From positions 224,001-288,000 of the forward strand of contig JBCCHT010000006.1 of the NCBI GenBank assembly GCA_039028615.1: a stretch of DNA of 64,000 nucleotides, in the 5' to 3' direction. The position numbers and the translations under genes are program-made. This DNA comes from Myxococcota bacterium (GTDB taxonomy: Bacteria; Myxococcota_A; Polyangia; Nannocystales; Nannocystaceae). The notes beneath the pieces were generated by a model. That model saw only the letters and a program-made list of their open reading frames with translations. It did no database searches and had not been told where the DNA came from. Positions 22,043 to 29,810 of this stretch are shown piece by piece. The stretch's first letter is position 1; the number at the start of each line of letters is the position of its first letter.

Positions 22043-24640
22043 TCAGCCGACGATGGCCCGCAACCGGAGTAAGGGCTCGTCGACCGCATCGGGCTCGCGC
22101 AGGTCGACCTCCGCCTGCACGCGCCACGGCGAGGGCCCTTGGGGGCCCACCAGCGTGTGCTCGACCGACCACCGTCGCTCGCCCGCCGACTCGATCTTGG
22201 TCAGCGCAGGGGCCCGGGCCTCGGCCCCGAAATGCAGCGTTCCTTCTTCCTCGAACACCGGTTCCAGCGCTTTTTCGAGGCGCTCCACCGTCCACGCGTC
22301 GTCGGGATCGACGGCCAGACCGACCAGCGCTTCTTCGTGGTCGCCCATCGCCATCGCCTTGGCCACCGCGTGCAGCTCGGCGCGAACGCGGGCCGTCAAC
22401 GCCTTTTTGTCCTTGGCCAGGTCGTAGGGCTCGGGCTCGGCCTCTTCTTCCACCTCGGCGTCCGACTCGCCGGGCTCCGGGCCGCCCTTCAAGATCCGCT
22501 CCCACTCGCTGACCAGGCTCGAGTCCACCCGCGCGAGCATGGCCCGCAAGAACGCGATCACGTCCTCGACCTCTTGGTTGTGATAACTGACGGGGACGTT
22601 CTGCAGCAGGGTCTTGTAGGTCTGGCTCAGGTAGCGCAGCAGCACGCCTTCGATACGGCCGAGCCCGTACTCCTTGACGTACTCGTTGAAGCTGGCGAAG
22701 CGCTCCTGCATGTCGCGGGCGACCGACTTGGGGGCGACGTTCTCGCCCCGTACCCACGGGTGCCCGGTCCGAAACTCGTCGAAGGTCCGATAGATGAGGT
22801 CGGCCAGCGGCTTGGGGTAGTCCGCCTTCTCGAGCTCGGTCATGCGGTCTTCGTACTCGACGCCTTCTTGCTTGAGGCGCGCCACGAGCTCGCCCTTGAC
22901 GTAGTCGAGCTGGCGCATGAGCACCGCCCGCGGGTTCTCGAGGATCGACTCGACCAGGCTGAGCACGTCGAGCCCGAAGCCCTCCGACTCGGCGTCGAGC
23001 TGCGCCAGCGCCTCGAGCAGGTACAGCGACAGCGTGTGGTGGAGCGAGAAGTCGCGCTGCAGGCCCGGGCTCACCCGCACGCAGCGTCGCGGCCAGCCCT
23101 CGGGGCGCTCGACCTCGATGATCTCGGCCTCCCGCAGGTGTCGAAACAGCATCGCCGCCTGTCGACGATGCCGCTTGCGGGCCCCCGAGCGCTCGTAGGA
23201 CCGCCCGATGATCTCGATGATCGTCTTGTACCCGCCGTGGGGCTGATCGACGTTGAACTCGCGATCGAGCACCGTCATCAGCATGCCGTGCGTGACCGAG
23301 AACCGGGACTCGAGCGCCTCCGGGTCGGACTCGATCAGCTTTTGGAAGGTGTGCTCGTCCCAGGGCACGTAGCCGCGCTCGGGCGGCTTCTTTCGCACGA
23401 AGCGCTTCTTGTTGCCCTTGCCCGCCGCCGCCTTGGCCTCGAGCTTCTTGTTCTCGATGACGTGCTCGGGCGCCTGAGCCAGCACCCAGCCGTGATCGTC
23501 GAAGCCCTTGCGACCGGCTCGACCCGCGATCTGCTTGAAGTCCCGCACCGCCAAGATGCGCACCTTCTCGCCGTCGAACTTGCACAGCTTGGTGAACAGC
23601 ACGGAGCGAATGGGCACGTTGACGCCCACGCCGAGCGTGTCGGTGCCCGAGATGATCTTGAGCAATCCCTGCTGCGACAGGCGCTCGACCAAGGTGCGGT
23701 ACTTGGGCAGCAGGCCCGCGTGGTGCAGGCCGATCCCGTGGTGGAGGAAGCGCTTGATGTCCTTGCCGTAGTGGGTATCGAAGCGAAAGTTGCCGATCAC
23801 CTTGGCGATCGCCCGCTTCTCTTCCTTGGTGCACAGGTTCACGCTGGTGAGGTTCTGCGCCTGCTCGGCCGCCTCGCGCTGGGTGAAGTTCACCACGTAC
23901 ACGGGGGCTCGACCGGCTGCGGCCAAGTCCCCGATGGTCTCGTGGAGCGGCGTCTCGCGGTACTCGAACTCGAGCGGCACCGGGCGCTGGCGCGAGCGCA
24001 CCACCGTGACCGGCTTGCCCGTGAACGCCTCGATCTGCCGTTCGAACTCCCCGACGTTGCCCAGCGTCGCCGACATCAACAAGAAGGTCGCGTGAGGCAT
24101 GGTCAATAGCGGCAGCTGCCACGCCATGCCCCGATCTGCGTCGCTGTAGTAGTGGAACTCATCCATCACCACGATGTCGGTCGAGGTGTACGCCCCGTCG
24201 CGGAGGGCCTGGTTCGCCAAAATCTCGGCGGTGCAGCACTGCACGGGCGCGCGCGGGTTGATCGACGCGTCACCCGTCATCATTCCGACGTTTTGCGCCC
24301 CGAGCTGTCGGCACAAGTCGAAGAACTTCTCGCTCACCAGCGCCTTGATGGGGCTGGTGTAGGCGCTGCGCTTGCCTTGGCACAGCGCCTTGAAGTGCAG
24401 CGCCAGGGCGACCATCGACTTGCCCGACCCGGTCGGAGTGGCGAGCACCAAGTGCTGCCCGCCCATGAGCTCCAAGATCGCCTCTTCCTGGGCGTCATAA
24501 AGGTCGATCCCCCGCTGGCCTACCCACTCGAGGAAGCGCTCGAGGATTTCGTCTCCGTCGAGCGTGCCTTCGGTCGGGAGGTACTGCTCGAGGGTGGCTG
24601 CGTCAGCGGAGGGCGGCACAGGGGGCTGAGCGTATCTCAC
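22043..24640 (-). CDS. Ski2-like SF2 (DEAD/DEAH-box) helicase, DUF3516-type
   Basis: [51 protein letters not shown]. Confidence 0.95.
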
Positions 24641-24691
24641 AACCCCGCGACGTCGTCATCCGCGAGCCCCCCCGGACTCGCGGAAGCACCA

Positions 24692-24706
24692 CGGAATTGA
24701 CGTTGC
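24692..24706 (+). promoter_or_regulatory. Candidate sigma54 -24/-12 promoter for the stem-loop array
   Basis: CGGAATTGACGTTGC = GG(24693-4)-N10-GC(24705-6) with TTGC. Predicted +1 at about 24718, two bases before the first stem. The -24 half deviates from TGGCAC. Confidence 0.5.
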
Positions 24707-24717
24707 CTTCGAAAAGG

Positions 24718-24964
24718 GACTGGGCCCGTCTCGGGGGAGAGACGAGCCCAGGTGGGGATTGAGCCTCGCGTCGGGGGAGATACGAGGTCTCTTCGGGGAT
24801 GGCCTCCGAACTCGGGGGAGAGGGAGGAGGCCGGGGTCGAACTCGGGAACCGGGGAGAACCCGAGTCGGACGAAGTGGGGAAGACTTGGGGTCGGGCGGC
24901 TCACGCGCCCCGGAGGGGAACCGGGGGCGGGGGAAGTAGGGGAAGGCGGAGCCTGCCCGACCCC
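24718..24964 (+). ncRNA. Putative multi-hairpin small RNA with ten GGGGA motifs (strand not certain)
   Basis: Stems at 24720-24751, 24761-24791, 24801-24832, 24841-24866, 24873-24887 and 24888-24964; GGGG(G)A in loops and linkers; no convincing ORF. Confidence 0.65.
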
Positions 24965-24970
24965 GGCGGA

Positions 24971-25849
24971 CTACTCGAGGTCGTACTGCTTGAGCTTGCG
25001 GTACAGAGTGGTCTTGCCGATGTGCAGCAGTCGAGCGGCCTTGCGCTTGTTGCCGCGGGCGTAGCTCAGCGCGCGACGGATGGCTTGCTTCTCGGCCTCT
25101 TCGAGGCAGAGCTGACGCTCGGGCGACTCGGCGCGAGTCTGGTGCACGTCGCGAACGCGAAGCTTGGCCGGAAGGTCGCGAAGCTCGATCTGCTCCGACG
25201 CACCGGCTGCGATGGCGTGGACCATGACCTCTTCGAGCTCGTCGACGTTGCCGGGCCAGGGGTAGCTGCGCAGGCAGTCGAGGGCGTTGTCGGCGATGCC
25301 ACCGATGGGGCGTCGGGTGGGCGTGCGCCGGATGATGTCCATGGCCAGCAGCTCGAGGTCTTCGATGCGCTCGGCCAAGGTCGGCACGTCGATGCGAACT
25401 CCGCTGGCCCAGCGAACGATCTGCGGGTGAAGGCGGTTGCGGCCTTCCTCGCTCTCGGGGCGAAGCTGAGTGCCGATGACGATGCGGCCGAGGCCGGTCA
25501 GCGCGGGAAGGCGAGCTTGCTCTTCGAGGGGGAGGTCTTCGAGATCGCCGAGGTAGGTGAACCCACCGAGACCAACGAGGCGCGACTGCTGGTCGCAGGC
25601 GCGGATGACCTCGAGCGCGGGGGACTCACCTCCACTAAAGTGGTGAAGGACCCGGGCGATGGTCTCTCGACCGGTGCCCGTGGCTCCGACCAACAAAACA
25701 GGGAGGTTGCTCCGAACGGCGCGATGCACCAACGCCTGCACACGGCGAGACGCAGGCGCGTGGCCTACGAACACCGGAGGCGGAGTACGAATCCGCGCCT
25801 CGGCAATGTTGTCGGAGAACGATGGGGAGAAATGATCGGCGATTTGCAT
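24971..25849 (-). CDS. Degenerate sigma54-activator-like (AAA+/Fis-HTH) regulator lacking a sensory domain and GAFTGA
   Basis: PVLLVGATGTGRETIAR.LH, P.LAERIED, YPWPGNVDEL, GNKRKAARLL.IGKTTLYRKL; no GAFTGA; altered Walker A and B. Confidence 0.88.
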   Translation of the reverse strand: MQIADHFSPSFSDNIAEARIRTPPPVFVGHAPASRRVQALVHRAVRSNLPVLLVGATGTGRETIARVLHHFSGGESPALEVIRACDQQSRLVGLGGFTYLGDLEDLPLEEQARLPALTGLGRIVIGTQLRPESEEGRNRLHPQIVRWASGVRIDVPTLAERIEDLELLAMDIIRRTPTRRPIGGIADNALDCLRSYPWPGNVDELEEVMVHAIAAGASEQIELRDLPAKLRVRDVHQTRAESPERQLCLEEAEKQAIRRALSYARGNKRKAARLLHIGKTTLYRKLKQYDLE

Positions 25850-25990: not shown

Positions 25991-26214
25991 ACCGTCATGA
26001 TGATGGCGGCTTGGGCCACCAACGACCACCCAAGGCCCAATGTCGGACAAAAAATCGTCAGGGGTTTGGCACCCGAGTTCCCGTTCGAGCCACGGGACTC
26101 TGACGGTCCGCTTTCGGATCGAGATCGTCCCGCATTGAGATCCCGACCACGCGGCTGGCGCCGGCACGGATCGATCGCTTGCGCCAGGAGCAGGGACCCG
26201 GCAAAAGGTGCGTC

Positions 26215-27063
26215 ATGTCGAAGGCCGACGAAGCCGAGCTGAGCACTTTGCGCACCCGCGTCAATGCCGCGTGGGAAGACCGAGCCTTGCTCGAGGACGA
26301 CGATCACCGAGCCGCTGTGCGACGGACGATCGCCCTGCTCGACGCCGGCTCGATCCGGGTCGCGTCCCCTCCCGCCGAAGACGGTGGCGACTGGGCGGTG
26401 CACATCTGGATCAAGCAGGCGATCGTTCTCTACTTCATTACTCAGAAGCTGCGGACCGATAACGTCGGCCCCTTCGAGTACTACGACAAGATCCCGCTGG
26501 GACGAGACTGGGCGCAAGCCGGCGTCCGCGTGGTGCCTCCCGCGACGGCGCGGTATGGCGCGTTCATCGAGTCGGGCTGCGTGCTCATGCCCAGCTACGT
26601 CAACGTCGGTGCCTATATTGGTACGGGCACGATGGTCGACACCTGGGCCACGGTGGGCAGCTGCGCCCAGATCGGTCGCAACGTGCACCTGTCGGGCGGC
26701 GTGGGCATCGGTGGTGTGCTCGAGCCCCCCGGAGCCACCCCGGTCATCATCGAGGACGGCTGTTTCGTGGGCTCCCGCGCCATCGTGGTCGAGGGCGTCC
26801 GCCTCGAGCGTGAGGTGGTCCTCGGCGCCAACGTCGTCATCACCGCGTCCACGCCCATCATCGACGTCACTGGCGAGGAGCCGGTGACGTACAAGGGCCG
26901 AGTGCCCGCGCGAAGCGTGGTCATCCCGGGCACCCGACCCAAGAAGTTCCCCGCGGGGGAGTACCAGGTTGCCTGCGCCCTCATCATCGGACGACGCAAA
27001 GAGAGCACCGATCAGCGCACCAGCCTCAACGATGCGCTGCGGACCTTCGACGTCCAGGTGTAG
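26215..27063 (+). CDS. dapD: 2,3,4,5-tetrahydropyridine-2,6-dicarboxylate N-succinyltransferase
   Basis: YYDKIPL, RVVPPA.ARYGAFI, LMPSYVNVGAY, VDTWATVGSCAQIG.NVHLSGGVGIGGVLEP. Confidence 0.97.
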   Translation: MSKADEAELSTLRTRVNAAWEDRALLEDDDHRAAVRRTIALLDAGSIRVASPPAEDGGDWAVHIWIKQAIVLYFITQKLRTDNVGPFEYYDKIPLGRDWAQAGVRVVPPATARYGAFIESGCVLMPSYVNVGAYIGTGTMVDTWATVGSCAQIGRNVHLSGGVGIGGVLEPPGATPVIIEDGCFVGSRAIVVEGVRLEREVVLGANVVITASTPIIDVTGEEPVTYKGRVPARSVVIPGTRPKKFPAGEYQVACALIIGRRKESTDQRTSLNDALRTFDVQV

Positions 27064-29168: not shown

Positions 29169-29810
29169 ATGAAGAAACTACTGTCTGTTTCGTGTCTGAT
29201 GACCATCCTCTTGCCGCTGACGATGGCGAGCGGATGCGATTTCGAGTTCCCGCATCCCGATCTCCCTGGCGGGGACACGGGAGAACGAGGCGGTGACGAA
29301 GCTGGCGAGGGCGGCGACCTCGAAGCATGTGATGCGGTGTTCGAGGCCTGCCTGGACGAAGGCGCCGACGAAGAAGCGTGTGTCGAGGTTCTCGAGGCCT
29401 GCTGGGACGAGGGCGGTGCCGAAGCCAACGGCGGTGGCGAGGAGCCCCCGATCGACGCGTGCGCGGGGGAGTTCGAGCTGTGCCTGGAAGAGGGTCACCC
29501 GATCGAGCTGTGCGAGGAGATCCTCGACGCATGCGACCCCGACGGCGAAGGCGAGTGCGAGGACCCCGACGGTGACGGCGAGGGCGAGCCCGACGGCGAG
29601 GACCCGGGAGGCGAGGAACCGGACGGGGAGGAGCCCGATGGCGAGGGCGAGCCCGATGGCGAAGACCCGGGAGGCGAGGAACCGGGCGGTGAGGAGCCCG
29701 ATGGCGGACCCGCAAGCGAGCACTGCGTAGAGGAACTCGTCGCCTGTCTCGAGGCGGGCGAGCCCGCGTGGGTCTGCGAAGAGCTGCTCGAGGCCTGCGA
29801 ACCGATGTAG
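29169..29810 (+). CDS. Highly acidic lipoprotein with three C-X6-C-X9-C-X6-C repeats
   Basis: AAGGA SD; lipobox ASGC; repeats CDAVFEAC..CVEVLEAC, CAGEFELC..CEEILDAC, CVEELVAC..CEELLEAC. Confidence 0.85.
   Translation: MKKLLSVSCLMTILLPLTMASGCDFEFPHPDLPGGDTGERGGDEAGEGGDLEACDAVFEACLDEGADEEACVEVLEACWDEGGAEANGGGEEPPIDACAGEFELCLEEGHPIELCEEILDACDPDGEGECEDPDGDGEGEPDGEDPGGEEPDGEEPDGEGEPDGEDPGGEEPGGEEPDGGPASEHCVEELVACLEAGEPAWVCEELLEACEPM
29574..29705 (+). repeat. 63-bp tandem duplication encoding about (DGEGEPDGEDPGGEEPDGEEP)x2
   Basis: Units start at 29574 and 29637 with few substitutions. Confidence 0.85.

What the first reader, a model, noticed from the sequence alone, without database searches (positions are those of the whole stretch)
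24718..24964. Periodic stem-loop array displaying ten GGGGA motifs: candidate undescribed sponge or anti-SD sRNA
Seen: this intergenic stretch folds into consecutive hairpins. H1 CTGGGCCCGTCTC-GGGGGA-GAGACGAGCCCAG (24720-24751), H2 GAGCCTCGCGTC-GGGGGA-GATACGAGGTCTC (24761-24791), H3 GGCCTCCGAACTC-GGGGGA-GAGGGAGGAGGCC (24801-24832), H4 ACTCGGG-aaccGGGGAgaa-CCCGAGT (24841-24866), H5 AAGT-GGGGAAG-ACTT (24873-24887), and a long closing stem (24888-24964) enclosing an AGGGGAA hairpin plus two unpaired GGGGAAG. Loops start at 24733, 24773, 24814 and 24852 (about 40-nt period), and the linkers carry GGGGAT (24754, 24795). Stems differ in sequence yet keep pairing while the loop motif is constant, which indicates selection on structure. 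Known: CsrB/RsmY/RsmZ display repeated GGA in loops and linkers to titrate CsrA, and alphaproteobacterial cuckoo/CcsR RNAs display repeated C-rich anti-SD loops. Inference: a + strand transcript sponges a GGGGA-binding protein, or a - strand transcript with UCCCCC loops pairs with G-rich ribosome-binding sites. Strand is unresolved: H1's C.A mismatch is a G.U wobble on the minus strand, whereas H3's purine-rich internal loop and the upstream promoter favour plus.
Basis: partly seen in the sequence, partly recalled or inferred. Interest (0 to 1): 0.88.

Follow-up and report, generated by a model that had tools for sequence, protein, structure and literature searches.

The report
C-rich hairpin RNA tail in myxobacteria
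Behind a regulator gene of a myxobacterium lies a row of RNA hairpins that each display the same short C-rich loop, probably a new lineage-specific version of the small RNAs that silence other messenger RNAs by pairing with their G-rich ribosome-binding sites.

Summary
The array is real: 10 motifs in 250 nt is the genome maximum (next 7), and it is single-copy. The evidence points to the minus strand, so the displayed motif is UCCCC, not GGGGA. It starts 6 nt after the stop of a degenerate sigma54-type regulator and ends in a terminator-like hairpin, so it is most likely that gene's 3' UTR. Related arrays follow the same gene in 5 of 10 rows of one clade (3 to 11 motifs in the first 260 nt, 20 in all in one) and in none outside it. 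Stems change while loops stay C-rich, although synonymous sites are near saturation. A second, free-standing C-loop RNA is shared by four genomes of the genus. Rho was found in 0 of 73 family genomes; Hfq was not found in this genome. Best reading (0.45): a cuckoo/6C-like RNA that pairs with G-rich ribosome-binding sites. Rivals: plain 3'-end structure (0.28), sponge for a C-binding protein (0.17), plus-strand CsrA sponge (0.05). No Rfam family is reached. Transcription, processing and targets are not shown.

The parts
24971..25849 (-). Host gene: degenerate sigma54-type (bEBP-like) regulator with a Fis-type HTH, 292 aa from the ATG at 25849 (the frame is open to 25903). The Walker A lysine and the GAFTGA loop look lost (read from the sequence; motifs recalled).
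   Evidence: orthologs in 46 of 73 family genomes
24888..24964 (-). Domain 1: long stem enclosing a C-rich interior with three UCCCC motifs; starts 6 nt after the stop codon
   Evidence: a long stem also forms in G004 and G002 when folded singly, but consensus folding of the alignment did not recover it
24873..24887 (-). H5: weak 4-bp hairpin or single-stranded linker with one UCCCC
24841..24866 (-). H4: hairpin with a CCCC loop
24801..24832 (-). H3: hairpin with a UCCCCC loop
24792..24800 (-). Single-stranded linker with AUCCCC; a like linker lies at the same place in G004
24761..24791 (-). H2: hairpin with a UCCCCC loop; the G004 counterpart has a different stem and a CCUCCCCC loop
24752..24760 (-). 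Single-stranded linker with AUCCCC, also in G004 and L086
24710..24751 (-). H1 and tail: 13-bp terminator-like hairpin with a UCCCCC loop and an imperfect U-tract; the counterpart of the hairpin that follows this gene in most relatives
24629..24634 (-). Possible -10 element of the helicase gene. A TTGCGC-N17/18-TA motif precedes the helicase in 6 of the 8 clade rows examined, but the -35 part is not matched in G000 or G004.
   Evidence: 9 of 40 rows overall; inference
22043..24619 (-). Downstream DEAD/Ski2-like helicase with DUF3516 (start GTG 24619 by my gene caller; the frame is open to 24640)
26179..27063 (+). dapD-like gene, divergent from the regulator (context only)

Best explanation
The array is the 3' untranslated end of the mRNA of the degenerate bEBP regulator (minus strand), closed by the terminator-like hairpin H1. 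Its stems hold about ten UCCCC(C) motifs single-stranded in loops and linkers. As in cuckoo/CcsR, 6C and sX13 RNAs, these motifs most likely act in trans: from the whole mRNA or from an RNase E/G-released fragment of about 255 nt, they pair with GGGGA(G)-type ribosome-binding sites and lower translation of those mRNAs without Hfq. Computed here: strand preference, position, terminator-like end, motif exposure, persistence in a clade, change of copy number, presence of RNase E/G, no Hfq found. Inferred, not shown: transcription, processing, pairing and targets.
For: Strand: fold z-scores and motif exposure; minus-strand terminator-like site; in 29 strong hairpins behind orthologs of the regulator the non-Watson-Crick positions are 27 G-U against 3 A-C in the gene's sense. 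Persistence: 3 or more UCCCC within 260 nt of the stop in 5 of 10 rows of the clade (G000 10, G004 6, G002 3 in 143 nt before its contig ends, L106 11, L086 3) and in 0 of 50 rows outside it, nor in 14 of 14 further family genomes. G004 keeps the order long stem, hairpins, linker, hairpin, linker, terminal hairpin, with all four 3' hairpin loops pure pyrimidine, while fourfold sites of the host gene are 46-55% identical against 44% by chance. Only 17 of 1,122 strong hairpins in the genome have such a loop. Terminal hairpin: 8 of 13 pairs change on both sides, 93.4% of cells pair, 0 of 500 shuffles reach that, slid controls 30-61%. The base before an unpaired C-run is U in 10 of 11 cases in G000 (background 0.47 without G, p 0.003). 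Possible targets exist: GGGGA lies in the ribosome-binding window of 162 of 8,715 called genes against 97 in control windows, GGGGAG 57 against 23. RNase E/G is present; Hfq was not found. A second, free-standing C-loop RNA with a U-tail on its C-rich strand is shared by G000, G004, G002 and G005. Best Rfam matches, all far under cut-off, are C-loop RNAs on the C-rich strand: Scr3202 24.3/52 and 6C 22.5/47, ar14 22.1/58.8 for G004. Precedents: PMC6486639, PMC3771888, PMC4615179, PMC8034643.
Against: No transcript, end or target is shown; the one RNA contig cannot give strand or level. The array is patchy: G001 and G003 have 0 UCCCC, G005 0 and L083 1, so 4 of 10 clade rows do without it. The covariation count concerns a terminator-like hairpin, which would covary anyway; it rests on 7 rows that I chose for likeness (7 of the 10 clade rows), with a structure taken from G000, and one row (G005) looks shifted by a column, which inflates both-side changes. 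The C-loop itself is kept in only 5 of those 7. Consensus folding did not recover domain 1. C-rich loops and C-rich tracts also occur at unrelated terminators of the family, and 3' regions of this genome lean mildly to C (CCCC 569 against GGGG 423 in the first 20 nt). The loop motif is UCCCC, not the cuckoo CCUCCUCCC, and the commoner GGAGG sites (337 genes) pair with it less well. In the near-identical RNA contig one UCCCC copy is changed (depth 2.6, may be error). Ten to twenty copies is more than pairing needs. Gene starts come from my own crude caller, which misplaced the regulator's start.
Confidence: 0.45

Rival explanations
1. Cis 3'-end architecture only: tandem hairpins that terminate and protect the regulator mRNA in a family without Rho. 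The loops are C-rich because unpaired bases in a 68% GC RNA drift to C rather than G, and hairpin-driven slippage multiplies the unit nearly neutrally.
For: Nearly every ortholog has one strong hairpin here. U-tracts are weak. Rho was found in 0 of 73 family genomes. Recent tandem duplications are seen in L106 (63 nt x 3.2, 47 nt x 4.3) and short repeats in L136. The array is missing in 4 of 10 clade rows. PMC6486639 (Discussion) mentions the older idea that C-rich stem-loops are alternative terminators.
Against: No tandem repeat is detectable in G000: its stems have diverged while the loops have not. One hairpin suffices in most relatives. Of 318 terminator-like hairpins in G000, 5 have CCCC and 8 GGGG in the loop, so C-loops are not the default. 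The U before the C-run and the free-standing second RNA are not predicted by drift.
Confidence: 0.28
2. A protein sponge with CsrB-like logic but a C-rich motif: the minus-strand RNA titrates an unknown UCCCC-binding protein, and copy number tunes its capacity.
For: The same short motif sits in loops and linkers alike, in 2 to 20 copies across the clade, a layout recalled for CsrB/RsmZ. Expansion by duplication in L106 keeps the loops, with one double change in a stem between copies (read from the sequence). CcaF1 binds the C-rich CcsR RNAs (PMC8034643 passages).
Against: No candidate protein was found: Rho 0 of 73, DUF1127 and Hfq not found in G000. KH, S1, cold-shock and RRM proteins were not searched. 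The tested C-loop RNAs in the papers read act by pairing.
Confidence: 0.17
3. A plus-strand RNA displays GGA motifs and sequesters CsrA.
For: csrA is present in G000 and in 63 of 73 family genomes; the plus strand has 18 GGA and three of its hexaloops are predicted open.
Against: Folding, wobble direction and the terminator all point to minus. No plus-strand promoter was found and no terminator right of the array. ANGGA occurs only twice and CANGGANG never (consensus recalled). csrA lies next to fliW, the arrangement in which a protein antagonises CsrA (PMC4894983 passages). csrA was not found in G004 (88% complete), which has the array, and is present in G001, G003 and G005, which lack it.
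Confidence: 0.05
4. A leader or attenuator that controls read-through from the regulator into the helicase gene.
For: Both genes are on the minus strand and adjacent in most relatives; H1 has a weak U-tract; a GGGGGGG run lies about 35 nt behind H1.
Against: A promoter-like motif sits directly before the helicase in 6 of 8 clade rows, including L106 and L086, which have C-loops. The G-run lies after the terminator, so it cannot act before termination. Both strands' folds show no obvious alternative structure for H1.
Confidence: 0.05

Closest known systems
Cuckoo / CcsR RNAs of Alphaproteobacteria (Rfam ar14)
   Same: Modular adjacent hairpins with variable stems and a constant C-rich anti-SD-like loop, in variable number (PMC4615179, passages). 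In Rhodobacter sphaeroides they are cut by RNase E from the 3' UTR of an upstream gene (PMC8034643, passages).
   Different: Loop UCCCC(C), not CCUCCUCCC; motifs also in linkers; 5-6 domains; host gene is a degenerate bEBP, not a DUF1127 gene (not found); ar14 score 22.1 of 58.8 for the G004 copy and no ar14 match listed for the window.
6C RNA (RF01066) and Scr3202 (RF02833) of Actinobacteria
   Same: High-GC host without Hfq; the last hairpin resembles the 6C terminal hairpin. 6C pairs with G-rich ribosome-binding sites without a chaperone (PMC6486639, abstract and first part of Discussion).
   Different: Scores 22.5 of 47 and 24.3 of 52; only the last one or two hairpins match; many more loops; another phylum; placed as a 3' UTR.
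sX13 of Xanthomonas
   Same: Several stems with 4C/5C loops that repress mRNAs with 4G motifs, Hfq dispensable (PMC3771888, passages).
   Different: sX13 is a 115-nt RNA with three loops; no match to it was listed by Rfam here.
Pxr of Myxococcus
   Same: A myxobacterial stem-loop sRNA directly behind a sigma54-type regulator gene (PMC5684412, first part of the text). The antisense probe printed in PMC5568312 implies a C-rich stretch; I did not see where it lies in the structure.
   Different: Pxr has its own sigma54 promoter and about 260 bp of upstream spacer, three stem-loops and an intact response regulator. Here there are 6 nt of spacer and no sigma54-like motif in the last 300 nt of the gene in 0 of 56 sequences. 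RF01812 does not match this locus.
CsrB / RsmY / RsmZ
   Same: One short motif repeated in loops and linkers (layout recalled).
   Different: The likely transcribed strand shows UCCCC, not GGA; ANGGA is rare on the other strand; csrA is fliW-linked.

Membership tests
Cuckoo/CcsR (ar14) | Adjacent hairpins with variable stems and a constant C-rich loop | tested here: met
Cuckoo/CcsR (ar14) | Loop motif CCUCCUCCC | tested here: not met
   loops are UCCCC(C), CCUCCC, CUUCCCCC
Cuckoo/CcsR (ar14) | Rfam ar14 gathering score 58.8 | tested here: not met
   22.1 bits for G004; not listed for the window
CcsR subgroup | Adjacent DUF1127 gene | tested here: not met
   PF06568 not found in G000
CcsR subgroup | Released from a 3' UTR by RNase E | not testable with these tools
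   position fits and RNase E/G is present; no read ends available
6C RNA (RF01066) | Gathering score 47 | tested here: not met
   22.5 bits; best in the genome 26.7 elsewhere
C-rich-loop pairing sRNAs as a kind (6C, sX13) | C-runs exposed in single-stranded loops | tested here: met
   10 of 10 motifs predicted unpaired at 0.84-1.0
C-rich-loop pairing sRNAs as a kind (6C, sX13) | Pairs with G-rich target sites and represses them | not testable with these tools
   candidate sites exist; pairing not shown
Pxr (RF01812) | Gathering score 80 | tested here: not met
   no match at this locus; best 26.9 bits elsewhere
Pxr (RF01812) | Own sigma54 promoter behind the regulator gene | tested here: not met
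   0 of 56 sequences match a recalled consensus
CsrB/Rsm sponges | Repeated ANGGA motifs in loops of the transcribed strand | tested here: not met
   ANGGA 2, CANGGANG 0 on plus (consensus recalled); strand evidence favours minus
CsrB/Rsm sponges | CsrA encoded in the genome | tested here: met
   beside fliW; not found in G004
REP-like dispersed repeat | Many copies behind unrelated genes | tested here: not met
   single copy; hairpin pattern in 1 of 73 genomes
Rho utilization site | Rho encoded in the genome | tested here: not met
   0 of 73 genomes, controls 8 of 14;

The most novel reading that the evidence does not exclude
A lineage without Rho, and apparently without Hfq, runs a C-motif counterpart of the Csr system: UCCCC arrays whose copy number ranges from 2 to 20, one in the 3' UTR of a conserved pseudo-bEBP and at least one free-standing, titrate an as yet unknown C-binding regulator. 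The mRNA of a transcription factor would then also be a tunable protein sponge.
Probability: 0.17. Interest if true: 0.82.

Novelty: new variant of a known kind. Interest (0 to 1): 0.52.

Why it matters
In the papers read, Pxr is the studied myxobacterial sRNA and its direct targets are still only predicted (PMC11928866, passages); a search for Nannocystaceae with small RNA listed two papers, neither on such an RNA by title. If the reading holds, C-rich-loop regulation known from Actinobacteria and Alphaproteobacteria arose again in a myxobacterial family in which Rho was not found. The locus also gives a natural series (0, 1-3, 6, 10, 20 motifs behind one orthologous gene) in which to ask how a terminator grows into a modular regulatory RNA, and whether motif number sets dose.

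Tried and rejected
Rfam: nothing at gathering level for the window or four related loci. DNA search of 73 family genomes: 13 had a match at E 0.01; the G004 hit at the syntenic site is real; 13 other hits that I printed were short matches outside such arrays. Terminal-hairpin pattern with 3 mismatches: 1 of 73, G000 only. Model R1: 41 of 73 genomes had hits at E 0.01; besides the three training loci I printed 27 loci and two further G000 hits, mostly single terminator-like hairpins, some C-rich, none an array like this; R1 scored the inner hairpins of the window poorly (best 11.4 bits). Three-motif pattern: 15 of 73 genomes, with control hits in a similar number; by the matched letters the others are mostly simple repeats; their loci were not folded. 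Consensus fold of domain 1 failed. Coding: the 82-aa minus-strand ORF 24656-24904 is not kept in G004 beyond its first codons and G002 lacks its start (read by eye). Rut site: no Rho found. G-quadruplex: G4Hunter-type maximum 2.36 on plus, but the runs sit in hairpin loops and wobble direction follows the C-rich strand; not favoured, not excluded. Internal promoter: sigma54-like 0 and sigma70-like 0 of 56; fourfold sites in the last codons are slightly more conserved (0.67, 9 sites, against 0.43-0.58), unexplained. RNA runs: two runs with share 0.05 gave the same 214-nt contig over 24891-25097 at depth 2.6, probably one data set; strand, level and ends cannot be read, and the uncovered part proves nothing. 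The 16S 3' end was not recognised among 10 motif hits, so the organism's own anti-SD was not read. G002's array is cut by a contig end and the helicase N-terminus was not found in it. No gene-by-gene target prediction was run. Earlier findings: four look-ups, nothing. Paper searches listed no description of this RNA; one search was too loose to count. No supplements were read; RNA motif surveys or myxobacterial transcriptome tables could list it.

Full report
Observation. The cluster is the densest of its kind in the 12.27-Mb, 68% GC genome: 10 motifs in 250 nt, next 7; first among 3,340 gene 3' regions, next 6; and one of two among 4,308 intergenic regions with five CCCC hairpin loops, the other folding weakly. 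It is single-copy and shows no tandem repeat.

Setting. The array fills the gap between two minus-strand genes: a 292-aa degenerate sigma54-type regulator with a Fis-type HTH (24971-25849) and a DUF3516 DEAD/Ski2-like helicase (22043-24619). The regulator has orthologs in 46 of 73 family genomes. Named records with the gene are largely Nannocystaceae; record L136, titled Paraliomyxa miuraensis SMH-27-4, is 85% identical, within the 78-89% range of same-genus handles. The clade is therefore probably Paraliomyxa-like; this is an inference.

Strand. Four results point to minus, the sense of the regulator. The minus strand folds far better than its shuffles (z -7.4 against -3.8), as in G004 and G002, and keeps all ten UCCCC motifs unpaired, while on plus four of ten GGGGA motifs are half or mostly paired. 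H1 with its tail is a minus-strand terminator-like site, and no sigma70-type promoter is found on either strand. In 29 strong hairpins behind orthologs, found with Watson-Crick scoring only, the odd pairs are 27 G-U against 3 A-C in the gene's sense. The best, though sub-threshold, Rfam matches are C-loop RNAs on minus. The array begins 6 nt after the stop and no promoter motif was found in the gene's end (0 of 56), so it is most simply the 3' UTR. None of this is a measured transcript.

Relatives. I read the DNA behind the gene in all 46 genomes with an ortholog and in 28 of 29 metagenome loci (one lacks the gene's end). Most have one strong hairpin. In a 10-row clade (support 100/99) UCCCC counts in the first 260 nt are G000 10, L106 11, G004 6, G002 3 (143 nt, contig end), L086 3, L084 2, L083 1, and G001, G003 and G005 0; none of the 50 other rows, some of them duplicates, and none of 14 further genomes exceeds 2. 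L106 has 20 motifs in about 600 nt, built by recent duplications. G004 keeps the order of elements with all four 3' loops pure pyrimidine, although the H2 stems differ, while fourfold sites of the gene are near chance identity (46-55% against 44%). The terminal hairpin changes on both sides in 8 of 13 pairs, beyond all 500 shuffles and the slid controls. Limits: seven rows chosen for likeness, one probably misaligned; terminators covary anyway; template switching can also produce double changes in hairpins (recalled); and domain 1 was not recovered by consensus folding. Against a vital role, 4 of 10 clade rows lack the array.

A sister RNA. A second C-loop element lies at about G000:C25:126460-126760 (minus), free-standing, with four C-rich hairpin loops and a clear U-tail on its C-rich strand. 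It matched 6 of 73 genomes; G004, G002 and G005 share the body, G001 only the last hairpin, and the G031 hit was not examined. Its consensus fold has 59 pairs, 10 with a double change, and it scores 23.8 of 58.8 against ar14. C-loop RNAs therefore appear to be a habit of this genus and are not confined to one gene's end.

Partners. Hfq and DUF1127 were not found in G000 (96.7% complete); RNase E/G is present. Rho was found in 0 of 73 family genomes while 8 of 14 controls scored, which removes the rut-site reading. csrA is common (63 of 73) but lies beside fliW in G000 and does not track the array; the plus strand has two ANGGA and no CANGGANG (consensus recalled). GGGGA is enriched where ribosome-binding sites lie (162 against 97 of 8,715 called genes) and TCCCC is depleted there (104 against 152), so targets for pairing could exist; starts come from my own crude gene caller.

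Mechanism. Most likely (0.45) the regulator's mRNA ends in this array, and the array, whole or cut out, pairs through UCCCC loops with G-rich ribosome-binding sites without a chaperone. That is how 6C (PMC6486639: abstract, first part of Discussion) and sX13 (PMC3771888: passages) are reported to act, and CcsR RNAs are cut from a 3' UTR (PMC8034643: passages; family description PMC4615179: passages). A plain 3'-end structure with drifting C-rich loops (0.28) is a serious rival, since C-rich loops occur at other terminators of the family and the unit clearly duplicates; against it, only 5 of 318 terminator-like loops in G000 hold CCCC, the run is preceded by U in 10 of 11 cases, and G000's stems have diverged while the loops have not. 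A sponge for a C-binding protein (0.17) explains the high and variable copy number best but has no candidate partner. The plus-strand CsrA sponge and a helicase attenuator are unlikely (0.05 each).

Known or new. It works like a C-rich-loop RNA but is a member of none of the families tested: cuckoo motif and score not met, 6C and Scr3202 under half their cut-offs, Pxr not matched and without its promoter (Pxr from PMC5684412, first part of the text, and PMC5568312 and PMC11928866, passages; FliW from PMC4894983, passages). Nine paper searches and four look-ups of earlier findings showed no description of it; most subscription journals and all supplements were outside what I saw. The only expression hint is one 214-nt contig, the same in two RNA runs, over the gene's end and domain 1; its differences fall in the loop interior and the spacer after the stop, none in stems or codons, but at depth 2.6 it shows neither strand nor level.

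Verdict. A real, clade-conserved, copy-number-variable C-rich hairpin array on the minus strand, best read as a new variant of anti-SD-type regulatory RNA in the 3' UTR of a pseudo-bEBP. Interest 0.52: worth an experiment, but the kind is known, the distribution is narrow and patchy, and function is inferred.

Noticed in passing
G000:C25, about 126460-126760 minus (L007, L127; relatives L128, L129, L130): Free-standing RNA candidate of about 300 nt with four large C-rich loops, a U-tailed terminator and a conserved upstream motif; shared by G004, G002 and G005 with compensatory changes; weak ar14 score 23.8 of 58.8. Better conserved in the genus than the array itself.
   Followed up: partly
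G000:C25, about 126870-126910 minus (L127, L128, L130): Just upstream of that RNA, a hairpin with a CCCCCAA loop and a U-rich tail: one copy in G000 and G004, three in tandem in G005.
   Followed up: no
family f1, 73 genomes: Rho (TIGR00767) found in 0 of 73 genomes, 42 of them at least 90% complete, while 8 of 14 controls scored. One paper search listed nothing on this by title.
   Followed up: partly
L113:1043-3056 (G000:C44): fliW, csrA and a sigma54 activator gene in a row; csrA in 63 of 73 family genomes.
   Followed up: partly
window 24971-25849: The regulator lacks recognisable ATPase motifs yet is 75-90% identical across much of the family, with an almost invariant C-terminal HTH; function unknown to the libraries searched.
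   Followed up: partly
G000:C59:20009-20075 plus (L114): C-rich tract and C-loop terminator behind another gene; best 6C-like score in the genome, 26.7 of 47.
   Followed up: no
window 24655-24681: A hairpin between the array and the helicase with a seven-G loop on the minus strand, complementary to the C-loops; not seen in relatives by eye.
   Followed up: no
L187, L190, L191, L193 (genus g29): A shared C-rich tract and CCCCUCCCC-loop terminator behind one gene in four genomes.
   Followed up: no
L196 (G000:C22:186043-186147): Weak Pxr-model hit, 26.9 of 80 bits, across a gene end followed by several hairpins; probably chance.
   Followed up: partly
window 29169-29810: A 213-aa acidic protein with repeated cysteine-containing segments and no Pfam match.
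   Followed up: no
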